A DNA stretch of 64,000 bases from the NCBI RefSeq assembly GCF_051903065.1, contig NZ_CP178438.1; one strand, written 5' to 3'. Below the pieces are notes generated by a model. That model had not been told where the DNA came from. It ran no database searches and was given only the letters and a program-made list of their open reading frames with translations. This stretch comes from Escherichia coli. Lineage in GTDB: Bacteria > Pseudomonadota > Gammaproteobacteria > Enterobacterales > Enterobacteriaceae. Both the position numbers and the translations under genes were made by a program. Of this stretch, positions 7,994-10,094 are shown piece by piece (position 1 is the first letter of the stretch; each line of letters begins with the position of its first letter).

Positions 7994-9812
7994 GCTTAAG
8001 GCGTTGATCACCGGTGTCGACAGGCTTTCTCCCGCGCTGTCGAAAATGCAAAAGAAAATCCGGGGATTTAAACGCCAGGCGGAAGAAGCGTCACAGGGTG
8101 GGCTGGCGCTTGGTGGCGGACTGGCAGCGGGTCTGACGCTTTCCCTGAAATCTTATGCCGATCAGGAAAACGCCGCCACCGGGCTGAAAGTCGCCATGAT
8201 GGATGCGAACGGCGAGGTTGGAAAGAGCTTTCAGGACATCAATAAACTGGCTATTGGCCTGGGTAATCAGCTACCCGGTACAACGGCTGATTTCCAGAAC
8301 ATGATGCAGATGCTGGTGCGTCAGGGGATCCCGGCAGAAAACATTCTTGGCGGTGTGGGTAAAGCGACAGCTTATCTTGCGGTACAACTGAAAAAAACAC
8401 CGGAAGCGGCTGCCGAGTTTGCCGCAAAGATGCAGGATGCTACCGGAACGGCGTCAGAAGACATGATGGGGCTGTTCGACACTATCCAGAAGGCGTTTTA
8501 TCTGGGCGTTGACGATACCAACATGTTGTCCTTCTTCACTAAAACCAGCTCTGTTCTGAAGATGGTGAACAAGGACGGTCTTCAGGCTGCACAGAGCCTT
8601 GCCCCCATCAGCGTCATGATGGATCAGATGGGGATGAACGGGGAGTCGGCAGGTAACGCCCTGCGAAAAGTTATCCAGTCCGGATTAAGCGTTAAGAAAA
8701 TCAGGGACGTCAATAAAATCATGGCCCGCCAGAAACTCGGGGTACAGCTCGATTTTACTGACGGCAAAGGGAGTTTTGGCGGTCTTGATAACATGTTCAG
8801 GCAACTGGCAAAGCTGCGAAAACTGACCGACGTTAAGCGAACAGGCGTACTTAAGGCAATATTTGGTGATGATGCCGAAACCCTTCAGGTGGTCAATGCA
8901 CTAATCGATAAAGGAAAGGATGGCTACGATCAGATCCAGCAGAAGATGAATAAACAGGCCAGCCTGAATAAACGTGTTCAGGCTCAGCTTGGTACGCTGT
9001 CCAACCTGTGGGAGGCAATGACGGGGACCGCAACTAACGGTCTTGCAGCTATTGGCGGCGCATTTTCTGGTGACGCCAAAAATATCACGCAGTGGCTGGG
9101 GGAGTTGGGGGAGAAATTCACGAAGTTTGCGGATGAAAATCCCCGGGTTATTCGCGGCGTCGTCGGGCTTGCTGCCGGTCTTGCGATTCTGAAACTGGGA
9201 TTGATGGGCGTGGGCAGTGCCATCAGTATTGTCAGCAGGATTATGTCGATGACGCCGATTGGCATGATTGCGACGGCGATTGCTCTGGCTGCGGGATTAA
9301 TTATCACTAACTGGGATGTTGTCGGACCTTATTTTAAGAAGCTCTGGGAAACCATTGGTCCTTATTTTGAGGCTGGCTGGGAACTTCTGAAGAAGGTTTT
9401 TGCCTGGTCGCCGCTGGGGATGGTGATCAATAACTGGGGACCGGTTGTTAAGTGGTTTCAGGATATGTGGGATAAGCTGAAGCCAATTATTGAGTGGTTT
9501 ACCGACAGTTCCGGTGACACGGTCGATGCCATTAACTCTGCGCAGTGGGGCGCGGGTGCTTATGATGCTTATGGGACGGGAATACCGGCGCGGGGATACA
9601 CACCTTATCCGGCGGTAGATCTGGCTCAGTCAAACAACGCCTCCGATGCCACAGGCCCGAATCCCTTCATGATTAACAAAGCTTCTGCGCCAAAAGTTGA
9701 TGGTGAGATCAAGGTATCATTTATAAATATGCCACCAGGTATGCGGGTTACGGAAACACGCTCCAGTGGCATTGATATAAATCACGATGTTGGCTATACC
9801 CGATTTTGGTAG
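7980..9812 (+). CDS. tail tape measure protein
   Basis: 610-aa ORF, Ala/Gly-rich with hydrophobic C-terminal segments, located after the chaperone pair. Confidence 0.85.
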   Translation: MAEFELKALITGVDRLSPALSKMQKKIRGFKRQAEEASQGGLALGGGLAAGLTLSLKSYADQENAATGLKVAMMDANGEVGKSFQDINKLAIGLGNQLPGTTADFQNMMQMLVRQGIPAENILGGVGKATAYLAVQLKKTPEAAAEFAAKMQDATGTASEDMMGLFDTIQKAFYLGVDDTNMLSFFTKTSSVLKMVNKDGLQAAQSLAPISVMMDQMGMNGESAGNALRKVIQSGLSVKKIRDVNKIMARQKLGVQLDFTDGKGSFGGLDNMFRQLAKLRKLTDVKRTGVLKAIFGDDAETLQVVNALIDKGKDGYDQIQQKMNKQASLNKRVQAQLGTLSNLWEAMTGTATNGLAAIGGAFSGDAKNITQWLGELGEKFTKFADENPRVIRGVVGLAAGLAILKLGLMGVGSAISIVSRIMSMTPIGMIATAIALAAGLIITNWDVVGPYFKKLWETIGPYFEAGWELLKKVFAWSPLGMVINNWGPVVKWFQDMWDKLKPIIEWFTDSSGDTVDAINSAQWGAGAYDAYGTGIPARGYTPYPAVDLAQSNNASDATGPNPFMINKASAPKVDGEIKVSFINMPPGMRVTETRSSGIDINHDVGYTRFW

Positions 9813-10045
9813 CAGAGAAAGTTAGCCTGGATAATTTAAGTGTTATTGAAGAGTCTAAACTAGAGCTCGTTTCTGCGGTGCGTTACTCTGCTCAGTATGT
9901 TCCTATGTTTACTCTGACGCTGGACAAAAAAGAAATTACCATGCCTAAAAATACGGTAATATTTCCATTTGCCAGCGATGAAACAGCTAAGTATTTAAAT
10001 GAACAACAGCAAAAGTATAAAGATTCGTTGTTTCTGACTCGCTAA
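9806..10045 (+). CDS. AT-rich hypothetical ORF (possible moron); true start uncertain (TTG 9806, ATG 9905 or 9941)
   Basis: Only ORF in a visibly AT-rich ~250 bp insert between tape measure and DNA-circularisation genes; followed by an intrinsic terminator. Confidence 0.25.
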   Translation: MVAEKVSLDNLSVIEESKLELVSAVRYSAQYVPMFTLTLDKKEITMPKNTVIFPFASDETAKYLNEQQQKYKDSLFLTR

Positions 10046-10063
10046 TTAATAAAATTCATTACA

Positions 10064-10094
10064 AGGCCACCTTCTAATAGGTGGCTTTTTTATT
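10064..10094 (+). terminator. rho-independent terminator
   Basis: AGGCCACC-TTCTAATA-GGTGGCTT stem-loop followed by TTTTTATTTT. Confidence 0.6.

What the first reader, a model, noticed from the sequence alone, without database searches (positions are those of the whole stretch)
9806..10094. AT-rich insert with its own terminator inside the tail gene cluster (possible moron)
Between the tape measure and DNA-circularisation genes the sequence is visibly AT-rich over about 250 bp, contains a small ORF with uncertain start (TTG at 9806; ATG at 9905 or 9941), and ends in a clear intrinsic terminator (10064-10094). Structural operons rarely carry an internal terminator, so this looks like an independently acquired cassette.
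Basis: seen in the sequence. Interest (0 to 1): 0.4.

Follow-up and report, generated by a model that had tools for sequence, protein, structure and literature searches.

The report
Broken remnant of a prophage moron
The AT-rich stretch is the back half and terminator of an accessory "moron" gene that sits between two tail genes of an SfV-like E. coli prophage. A 389-bp deletion removed its promoter, start codon and membrane anchor, so here it is a dead relic rather than a working cassette.

Summary
Window 9814-10094 is 35% GC against 52-56% in the flanks. It holds a 79-codon ORF (9806-10045) and a strong intrinsic terminator (stem 10063-10088, T-run to 10096).

The ORF is not a small gene with an uncertain start. 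E. coli SCU-118 is 100% identical on both sides but has 389 extra bases exactly between window 9813 and 9814. These bases restore a 176-aa gene (WP_000679479.1, PHROG 5485, function unknown) with a promoter-like site. The undeleted segment is in 175 of 5426 complete E. coli genomes; the deletion junction is in 2. The window keeps only codons 101-176.

The parent gene behaves like a moron:
- It is absent from SfV, SfII and SfIV.
- It is AT-rich in every lineage examined.
- It encodes a protein with an N-terminal membrane helix and a fold with no PDB relative.
- Distant relatives sit elsewhere in phage genomes, and Lelliottia keeps a lone copy.

Two unrelated AT-rich cassettes, one matching a PHROG family labelled superinfection exclusion Sie-like, occupy the same slot in other prophages. 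A terminator alone is not diagnostic: SfII/SfV-type empty slots keep a hairpin, while SfIV-type empty slots have none.

Verdict: an ordinary, decayed member of a known kind. Interest is low.

The parts
7980..9812 (+). Tail tape measure protein gene (610 aa). Its stop codon TAG is at 9810-9812, one base before the deletion junction.
   Evidence: ORF list. RefSeq annotation of a 99.98% identical genome. PF10145 in orthologous loci.
9813..9814 (.). Deletion junction. 389 bp present in relatives (L003 2615-3003) are missing between these two bases, with no microhomology at the junction.
   Evidence: Pairwise alignment with E. coli SCU-118, 100% identical on both sides. The junction 60-mer is contiguous in 2 of 5426 genomes. 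The missing 389 bp are in 175 genomes and nowhere else in the window.
9815..10045 (+). 3' remnant of the PHROG 5485 moron gene: codons 101-176 plus the stop. This corresponds to the last two long beta-strands and the C-terminal helix. The membrane helix and half of the sheet are gone.
   Evidence: Same frame as, and identical to, L003 3005-3235. Family assignment of the full gene. Structure model.
9806..10045 (+). Mechanical 79-codon ORF. PGAP calls it 'hypothetical protein' WP_226156899.1. Its TTG start and first 3 codons come from the end of the tape measure gene. It is best read as a pseudogene.
   Evidence: None of the three candidate starts has anti-SD pairing stronger than the random-position mean. 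The exact protein is on 6 contigs, against at least 1000 for the full-length form.
10063..10096 (+). Intrinsic terminator of the cassette: 10-bp stem, 6-nt loop, then TTTTTTATTTT. It now has no dedicated promoter upstream.
   Evidence: It is identical in the intact cassette. Rfam gives only sub-threshold matches to leader/terminator models.
10098..11435 (+). Ribosome-binding site GGAG (10098-10101) and the Mu N-like DNA-circularisation / baseplate hub gene (ATG 10107, 442 aa). Neither is touched by the deletion.

Best explanation
The segment is the decayed 3' part of a moron cassette that sits between the tape measure gene and the Mu N-like gene of an SfV/SfII-like prophage integrated next to tRNA-Thr and proA.

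Intact form (shown). The cassette is about 680 bp at 34% GC. It has a 91-nt AT-rich leader with a sigma-70-like site (TTGTAA-16-TGATAGAAT). It then has a 176-codon gene for a protein with an N-terminal membrane helix and a roughly 150-residue beta/alpha domain, followed by an intrinsic terminator directly before the ribosome-binding site of the next tail gene.

This genome (shown). A 389-bp deletion without microhomology removed all but the first base of the leader, the start codon and codons 1-100. It joined codon 101 to the base after the tape measure stop codon.

Consequences (inferred). The remaining 77 codons have no promoter of their own, no convincing ribosome-binding site and no membrane anchor, so they are a pseudogene. 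The terminator is left as an orphan. In lytic growth it should be read through by Q-modified RNA polymerase, so tail gene expression should not be harmed.

Function of the intact gene (inferred, about 0.3 confidence). It is expressed from the repressed prophage and acts at the cell envelope, most likely excluding superinfecting phages in the manner of the HK97 gp15 moron.
For: Deletion:
- SCU-118 is 100% identical over window 9700-9813 and 9814-10200 but has 389 extra bp between them. These complete a 531-bp CDS, WP_000679479.1.
- The 389-bp segment is present at 99% identity or more in 175 of 5426 complete E. coli genomes, including ETEC H10407. The junction is contiguous in only 2, both from one study.
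- The full-length protein is on at least 1000 contigs, the 79-aa form on 6.

Direction of the change:
- Full-length orthologues (53-58% identity, 173-174 aa) in Leclercia and related bacteria occupy the same slot: L007-L009 and L013-L017.
- A 30%-identical member, L023, does too.
- The long form is therefore ancestral.

Real gene: pN 0.31 against pS 0.75 between E. coli and Leclercia. There are 79 family representatives at 50% clustering, and all 62 full-length ones hit phrog_5485.

Moron character:
- The gene is absent from SfII, SfV, SfIV and JNE170426.
- Gene GC is 34-39% in all lineages, against 47-56% in the flanks.
- Promoter-like sites occur in the leader: 9/12 with a TGn extended -10 in E. 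coli, 11/12 in L017.
- The terminator is present.
- Distant members lie in other phage modules.
- A lone cassette with about 190 nt of tape measure 3' end survives next to icd in Lelliottia.
- The cassette is intact in the badly decayed SCU-118 prophage.

Envelope targeting: there is a hydrophobic N-terminus. The AF2 model has pLDDT 91.7 with helix 2-23.

Slot and context:
- Two unrelated AT-rich cargos use the same slot. One is a PHROG 8545 'superinfection exclusion Sie-like' OB-fold gene. The other is a PHROG 5586 protein with a signal-peptide-like N-terminus.
- A Q antiterminator is present in the same prophage.
- Moron definition and the HK97 gp15 precedent: PMC3594210. Q read-through in SfIV: PMC3851460.
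Against: - No transcript or protein data exist for either the intact or the truncated form.
- The promoter-like matches are no more frequent than in shuffled sequence, and their positions are not clearly conserved between lineages.
- The intact gene's own Shine-Dalgarno pairing is as weak as that of the remnant's candidate starts. Weak ribosome-binding sites therefore do not by themselves prove that the remnant is untranslated.
- The TTG at 9806 lies 4 nt before the tape measure stop, so low-level translational coupling cannot be excluded.
- The gene has held this slot over long divergence (orthologues down to 30% identity). It is therefore an old resident rather than a recent acquisition.
- No function could be assigned. 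There is no hit in Pfam, NCBIfam, PADLOC or PDB sequences, and no fold match.
Confidence: 0.9

Rival explanations
1. An intact, independently acquired moron: a small gene (79 aa from TTG 9806, or 46 or 34 aa from ATG 9905 or 9941) with its own terminator, expressed in the lysogen.
For: An AT-rich segment, an open frame and a strong terminator are all there. PGAP annotates the 79-aa ORF as a protein. A weak promoter-like match, TTGGTA-18-GATAAT, spans the junction at 9806-9835.
Against: The ORF is 100% identical to codons 101-176 of a 176-aa gene that is conserved at full length across genera. The 5' half, leader and promoter-like site are missing. This allele is in 2 of 5426 genomes, against 175 with the full gene. 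The remnant lacks the membrane helix and half of the beta-sheet. The candidate starts have no Shine-Dalgarno pairing stronger than the random-position mean. The junction promoter match is at chance level, with 13 found against 15 expected.
Confidence: 0.04
2. The hairpin is a backbone regulatory element of the tail operon and has nothing to do with the cargo. It might be a partial terminator or an mRNA-stabilising 3' hairpin that sets the ratio of sheath, tube and tape measure proteins to baseplate proteins.
For: A hairpin plus T-run followed by GGAG and the ATG of the next gene is present in SfII, SfV and JNE170426, which carry no cargo. The SfII record annotates it as a terminator. This empty-with-hairpin form is the commonest state, in 532-673 genomes. 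Four different stem sequences fold at the same position across lineages.
Against: The SfIV-type empty slot has a 24-nt spacer and no hairpin (-4.6 kcal/mol), yet SfIV is a viable phage. That form occurs in 115 or more genomes. On the related backbone of phage vB_EcoM-720R4, a terminator appears together with a cargo gene. In CREC_5, with an inverted cargo, the hairpin sits at the 3' end of the cargo and there is none before the next tail gene. The JNE170426 hairpin is weak (z = -0.75). The SfII-type spacer may therefore be a scar of a lost cassette.
Confidence: 0.2
3. The 176-aa protein is a phage structural or assembly accessory of the Mu-like tail (for example, a membrane factor for tape measure or baseplate function) rather than a lysogen-benefit gene. 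On this reading its truncation cripples the prophage.
For: It is strictly syntenic between the tape measure and DNA_circ_N genes over deep divergence. It lies on the same strand as the late operon.
Against: Viable phages SfV, SfII, SfI and SfIV and most E. coli relatives lack it. Distant members sit outside tail modules. A lone copy is kept in Lelliottia without any tail genes. The slot also accepts unrelated cargo, one on the opposite strand. Composition is atypical for the tail genes.
Confidence: 0.05

Closest known systems
Moron elements of lambdoid phages, as defined by Juhala, Hendrix and colleagues in 2000. The prototype is HK97 gene 15, in the tail operon next to the tape measure gene (PMC3594210).
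   Same: It is extra DNA present in some related phages and absent from others at one position in the tail operon. Its base composition deviates from the flanks. The intact form is bracketed by a promoter-like site and an intrinsic terminator. It encodes a small membrane-inserted protein and sits next to the tape measure gene.
   Different: There is no sequence relation to gp15/YebO (no Pfam hit). The protein is larger (176 aa) and has a folded ectodomain. Expression in lysogens and any exclusion phenotype are untested. The copy in this window is truncated and lacks a promoter and start codon.
PHROG 5485 (phage protein family of unknown function). The E. coli member is WP_000679479.1, for example ETEC H10407 ETEC_RS01640.
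   Same: Window codons 9815-10042 are 100% identical to residues 101-176 of the SCU-118/H10407 protein (WP_000679479.1), a member of this family.
   Different: Only 43% of the protein is encoded here. The conserved N-terminal helix and the G-x-(V/I)-x-L-G-x-V-Y-x-E motif are missing.
Membrane-anchored superinfection exclusion proteins encoded by prophages (P22 SieA, lactococcal Sie2009, S. thermophilus Ltp). This group includes the PHROG 8545 'Sie-like' OB-fold protein found in the same slot of other E. coli prophages.
   Same: It has the size class and N-terminal anchor expected of such proteins, an AT-rich stand-alone cassette and a prophage location. It is positionally interchangeable with a gene that matches the PHROG family labelled Sie-like.
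   Different: No sequence or fold similarity to any of them was detected. The Sie assignment of PHROG 8545 is itself only an annotation. No phenotype data exist.
Prophage pseudogenes produced by deletion during prophage decay.
   Same: There is a clean internal deletion with no microhomology. Other independent broken alleles of the same gene exist: a portal fusion, frameshifts and foreign C-termini. The same prophage also has a frameshifted YmfQ gene and a partial DUF2570 family gene in the lysis region.
   Different: The rest of the tail operon is intact. The decay here hit accessory rather than essential phage DNA.

Membership tests
Moron (Juhala/Hendrix definition) | Present at a given position in some phages and absent from closely related ones | tested here: met
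   It is absent from SfII, SfV, SfIV and JNE170426. It is present in SCU-118, H10407 and 175 genomes.
Moron (Juhala/Hendrix definition) | Base composition differs from the surrounding phage genes | tested here: met
   GC is 0.35 (window remnant) and 0.34 (intact cassette), against 0.52-0.56 in the flanks. The same holds in 7 other lineages.
Moron (Juhala/Hendrix definition) | Own promoter upstream of the gene | tested here: not met
   In the window, the leader with the promoter-like site (L003 2642-2669, TTGTAA-16-TGATAGAAT) lies inside the deleted 389 bp. For the intact cassette the test is inconclusive: sites scoring 9-11 of 12 occur in most lineages, but at chance frequency and without clear positional conservation.
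Moron (Juhala/Hendrix definition) | Own intrinsic terminator downstream of the gene | tested here: met
   The stem is 10063-10088 plus a T-run, at -15.6 kcal/mol and z = -3.9. All orthologous cassettes have one. Caveat: SfII-type empty slots also carry a hairpin.
Moron (Juhala/Hendrix definition) | Transcribed from the repressed prophage | not testable with these tools
   No transcript data are available here. It needs RNA-seq or 5'-RACE in lysogens.
PHROG 5485 protein family | Full-length match to the 176-position profile, including the N-terminal helix and the GxVxLGxVYxE motif | tested here: not met
   The intact E. coli protein matches positions 1-176 at E = 4e-108. The window encodes only residues 101-176.
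HK97 gp15 / YebO-type exclusion proteins | Sequence homology to gp15/YebO | tested here: not met
   There is no Pfam-A family at E up to 1 for the 176-aa protein. No shared family appears among 62 members.
HK97 gp15 / YebO-type exclusion proteins | Inner-membrane insertion | tested here: inconclusive
   The intact protein has a predicted N-terminal helix at residues 2-23 and a hydropathy peak. Topology has not been measured. The helix is absent from the window remnant.
HK97 gp15 / YebO-type exclusion proteins | Blocks DNA entry of superinfecting phage | not testable with these tools
   This requires plating and DNA-entry assays.
Rho-independent terminator | G+C-rich hairpin immediately followed by a U-run | tested here: met
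   It has 10 pairs (5 G-C), a 6-nt loop and the tail TTTTTTATTTT. None of 200 shuffles folds as well.
Known anti-phage defence systems (PADLOC) | Match to a PADLOC-DB model | tested here: not met
   There are no hits for the 176-aa protein or for the OB-fold cargo.

The most novel reading that the evidence does not exclude
The junction between the tape measure gene and the Mu N-like gene of SfV-like prophages may be a cargo-exchange hot spot. It rotates at least three unrelated AT-rich cassettes, two of whose products carry clear envelope-targeting N-termini. The PHROG 5485 protein (a single-pass membrane anchor plus a confidently predicted ectodomain with no PDB relative) may be a new class of superinfection-exclusion or envelope-defence protein. 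It may be useful enough to the host to be kept alone after the prophage is lost, as in Lelliottia.
Probability: 0.3. Interest if true: 0.45.

Novelty: new member of a known kind. Interest (0 to 1): 0.2.

Why it matters
For this window it matters little. It corrects an annotation: the 79-aa 'hypothetical protein' WP_226156899.1 is a pseudogene fragment, not a small gene. It also shows that an internal terminator is a poor stand-alone signature of insertion in Q-antiterminated phages.

More broadly, the comparison maps a slot in a very common family of E. coli and Shigella prophages, present in about one in five complete E. coli genomes. In that slot, unrelated AT-rich accessory genes are swapped, most of them encoding proteins with export or membrane-anchor signals. 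The comparison also singles out an uncharacterised family (PHROG 5485) with a confident structure model and no known fold relative. That family is a cheap candidate for phage-exclusion assays.

Tried and rejected
- **Family searches.** Pfam, NCBIfam and PADLOC scans of the intact 176-aa protein and of 62 family members gave no family. A PDB sequence-profile search gave nothing below E = 0.3.
- **Isolated phages.** tblastn of the 176-aa protein against 50,697 phage records found no match. The gene is so far seen only in prophages and metagenomes.
- **Rfam.** Window 9500-10400 gave only sub-threshold matches to the Phe/Thr leader models, which overlap the terminator hairpin, and to a Streptococcus sRNA model on the opposite strand. 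No known RNA family is present.
- **Structural alignment of the hairpins.** A MAFFT alignment did not put the 5' arms in register because loop lengths differ. I therefore tabulated individual folds instead and did not run pair-covariation counts.
- **Promoter conservation.** An alignment of the leaders showed a shared GTATTGTAAT-like motif after the tape measure stop but no consistently placed -10 element.
- **Other readings.**
  - The 389 bp as an insertion in the other genomes: rejected, because diverged orthologues contain the N-terminal half.
  - An assembly artefact: unlikely, because the junction is found in two complete assemblies and the 79-aa product on 6 contigs, and there is no repeat at the breakpoints.
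  - The third cargo (PHROG 5586) as a diverged member of the same family: rejected, since hhalign gave probability 0.2%.
- **Literature.** No paper on this gene or slot was found. The SfV genome paper is not held.
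Full report
**1. What is in the sequence**

Window 9806-10094 lies between the tail tape measure gene (7980-9812) and the Mu N-like DNA-circularisation gene (ATG 10107-11435) of a Mu-like tail cluster.
- GC falls to 0.34-0.38 there, against 0.52-0.56 on either side. Over 9814-10094 it is 0.352, a value reached by only 1.2% of 281-bp windows in the 20-kb late region.
- A 79-codon frame runs from TTG 9806 to the stop at 10043-10045, with in-frame ATGs at 9905 and 9941.
- A hairpin at 10063-10088 (10 pairs, 5 G-C, 6-nt loop) is followed by TTTTTTATTTT. It folds at -15.6 kcal/mol (z = -3.9), and none of 200 shuffles folds as well.
- The ribosome-binding site GGAG (10098-10101) of the next gene follows directly.

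**2. Where the window comes from**

The window is 99.98% identical to E. coli 23CRST027, apart from a flipped invertible tail-fibre segment.
- The prophage sits next to tRNA-Thr and proA and is of the SfV/SfII type.
- It carries an 'antiterminator Q family protein' gene upstream of the lysis and late genes, outside the window.
- In this phage group Q-modified polymerase is expected to read through terminators (PMC3851460).

**3. The key result: the ORF is a truncated gene**

A megablast of 9700-10200 against 5426 complete E. coli genomes gave 175 genomes that cover the query in two pieces spread over 890 bp.
- In E. coli SCU-118 both pieces are 100% identical to the window, but 389 extra bases (L003 2615-3003) lie exactly between window 9813 and 9814.
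- With these bases the frame becomes a 531-bp gene for a 176-aa protein, WP_000679479.1, preceded by a 91-nt AT-rich leader.
- The window frame is the same frame. Window 9815-10042 equals codons 101-176.
- The first three codons of the mechanical ORF, including its TTG, are simply the end of the tape measure gene. This explains the 'uncertain start'.
- There is no microhomology at the junction.

*Which form is derived.* The evidence all points to a deletion in the window's lineage.
- The missing 389 bp occur at 99% identity or more in 175 genomes, including ETEC H10407. They occur nowhere else in the window.
- A 60-mer centred on the junction is contiguous in only 2 genomes, 23CRST027 and 23CRST031.
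- The exact 79-aa product is recorded on 6 contigs, the exact 176-aa product on at least 1000.
- Full-length orthologues of 173-174 aa (53-58% identity) exist in Leclercia and related enterobacteria, and their N-terminal half is conserved.

The window therefore carries a derived deletion, not the ancestral state.

**4. What the intact element is**

*The protein.*
- It matches PHROG 5485 (unknown function) over its whole length, at E = 4e-108.
- It has no Pfam, NCBIfam, PADLOC or PDB-sequence match.
- A profile search of 1.84 billion representatives found 79 family members. All 62 full-length ones hit PHROG 5485, and none shares a Pfam family.
- With that alignment AlphaFold2 gives a confident model (pLDDT 91.7). 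It has an N-terminal helix at residues 2-23, then strands 32-36, 39-44, 46-58 and 65-72, helix 74-93, strands 114-126 and 132-143, and helix 149-171.
- The N-terminus is the only strongly hydrophobic stretch.
- Between E. coli and Leclercia pN is 0.31 and pS is 0.75. The gene is therefore a real coding sequence under constraint.

*Moron-like behaviour.*
- It is absent from the same position in phages SfII, SfV and SfIV and in many E. coli prophages.
- It is AT-rich (34-39% GC) in every lineage, against flanks of 47-56%.
- In E. coli the leader has a sigma-70-like site with a TGn extended -10 (TTGTAA-16-TGATAGAAT, L003 2642-2669). One orthologue has an 11/12 match, TTGTCA-16-TATAAT. These matches are not above chance by count and are not strictly co-located.
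- Every cassette ends in a hairpin plus T-run just before the GGAG and ATG of the next gene.
- Close orthologues, and a 30%-identical member, keep the same slot.
- More distant members lie elsewhere in phage genomes. One sits between a lysis module and RecT/Dam genes, another near an HTH repressor-type gene.
- In Lelliottia amnigena a lone intact cassette survives next to icd. It keeps about 190 nt of the tape measure 3' end and its hairpin, with no other phage genes nearby.
- In SCU-118 the cassette is intact while the portal, chaperone and N genes around it are truncated.
- These two cases hint at retention by the host, but they are only two.

**5. The slot**

The same junction holds other cargo in other prophages.

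| State of the slot | Example | Complete E. coli genomes (of 5426) |
|---|---|---|
| PHROG 5485 gene, intact | SCU-118, H10407 | 175 |
| PHROG 5485 gene, this deletion | 23CRST027, 23CRST031 | 2 |
| Minus-strand OB-fold gene (PF12869; PHROG 8545 'superinfection exclusion Sie-like'), 37% GC | CREC_5 | 54-72 |
| Plus-strand 162-aa protein with a typical signal-peptide N-terminus (PHROG 5586), 34% GC, own terminator | phage vB_EcoM-720R4 | 101 |
| Empty, 58-nt AT-rich spacer with hairpin and T-run (annotated as terminator in the SfII record) | SfII, SfV, JNE170426 | 532-673 |
| Empty, 24-nt spacer, no hairpin | SfIV | 115-214 |

- The PHROG 5586 protein is unrelated to PHROG 5485 (hhalign probability 0.2%).
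- About 1067 genomes carry the adjacent N-gene segment.
- A terminator here is therefore not in itself proof of an insert. The compact SfIV form suggests that the hairpins come with cargo, and that the SfII-type spacer may be a scar.

**6. What the remnant does in this genome**

The deletion removed all but the first base of the leader (including the promoter-like site), the start codon, the membrane helix and the first half of the sheet.
- None of the three possible starts has anti-Shine-Dalgarno pairing stronger than the random-position mean: -1.5, +0.7 and -3.0 kcal/mol against a mean of -3.0. Neighbouring tail genes reach -7 to -8.6. The intact gene's own site is also weak (-2.8), so this argument is only supportive.
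- A 9/12 promoter-like match spans the junction (9806-9835), but such matches are at chance frequency.
- I conclude that the remnant is a pseudogene and that the terminator is an orphan. Because Q is present, the terminator should not impede late transcription. That last step is inference.
- Several other independently broken alleles exist in E. coli: a portal fusion at about codon 107, frameshifts and foreign C-termini. This fits ordinary decay.

**7. Mechanism proposed for the intact cassette (inferred, about 0.3)**

The cassette would be transcribed from its own promoter in the lysogen and stopped by its terminator, so that downstream tail genes stay silent. Its product would be anchored in the inner membrane with the folded domain in the periplasm, where it would interfere with infection by other phages.

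The grounds are:
- the moron architecture;
- the N-terminal membrane anchor;
- positional interchangeability with a gene matching the Sie-like PHROG family and with a protein that has a signal-peptide N-terminus;
- the precedent of HK97 gp15, a moron next to the tape measure gene that blocks DNA entry (PMC3594210).

There is no sequence or fold similarity to any known exclusion protein, and no experiment bears on this.

**8. Verdict**

The copy in this window, however, is a truncated, promoterless relic of a widespread moron and not a functional cassette, and the terminator argument is weaker than stated.

It is a decayed member of a known kind of element, so interest for the window is low. 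The only mildly interesting by-product is the cargo-swapping slot and the uncharacterised, confidently modelled PHROG 5485 family.

Noticed in passing
window 15392-17312: This is the invertible tail-fibre segment next to pinE. It is flipped relative to the otherwise 99.98% identical genome 23CRST027, and the two alignment blocks overlap by 20 bp at each end (15392-15411 and 17293-17312). This is consistent with Pin-mediated host-range switching.
   Followed up: partly
window ~19471-21306 (+); neighbours ~17986-18759 (-) and ~21366-22062 (-): In the matching RefSeq record, a retron Ec67-family reverse transcriptase/endonuclease gene lies at the distal end of the prophage. A LEM-3-like GIY-YIG gene precedes it and a frameshifted IS1 follows it. 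This looks like a defence-type cargo region at the prophage end.
   Followed up: no
window ~14520-15103 (+): The YmfQ-family baseplate/tail gene is annotated as frameshifted in the matching record. The DUF2570 family gene in the lysis region, outside the window, is annotated as partial. The prophage therefore shows other signs of decay.
   Followed up: no
L004 2614-3202 (E. coli CREC_5), same slot as the finding: This is the alternative cargo: an OB-fold (PF12869) gene on the minus strand that hits PHROG 8545 'superinfection exclusion Sie-like'. Its annotated GTG start cuts through a hydrophobic segment (KWILYIFIGLVIIGYFAG), and the in-frame upstream stretch has no canonical start codon.
   Followed up: partly
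L025 520-1125 (phage vB_EcoM-720R4), same slot: This is a third, unrelated cargo: a 162-aa protein with a typical signal-peptide N-terminus (PHROG 5586, unknown function), at 34% GC and with its own strong terminator (-20.4 kcal/mol). It is present in 101 complete E. coli genomes.
   Followed up: partly
L010 5810-6581 (Lelliottia amnigena chromosome, next to icd): An intact 174-aa PHROG 5485 gene with its leader, its hairpin and about 190 nt of tape measure 3' end stands alone among housekeeping genes. It looks like the last surviving piece of a lost prophage.
   Followed up: partly
window 36581-37038, 47578-47863, 52508-53129: There are tandem arrays of 93-94-bp units (3 to 6.6 copies, 94-97% matches) that contain REP/BIME-like palindromic sequences. 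They lie in intergenic regions of the yah and prp-cod region. These are ordinary E. coli repeats.
   Followed up: no
window 280-307 (+): This is a 12-pair G+C-rich hairpin inside the small ymfR gene, just after the terminase large-subunit gene. It is followed by only a short T-run (TTTTGCTG), so it is a much weaker terminator candidate than the one at 10063.
   Followed up: no
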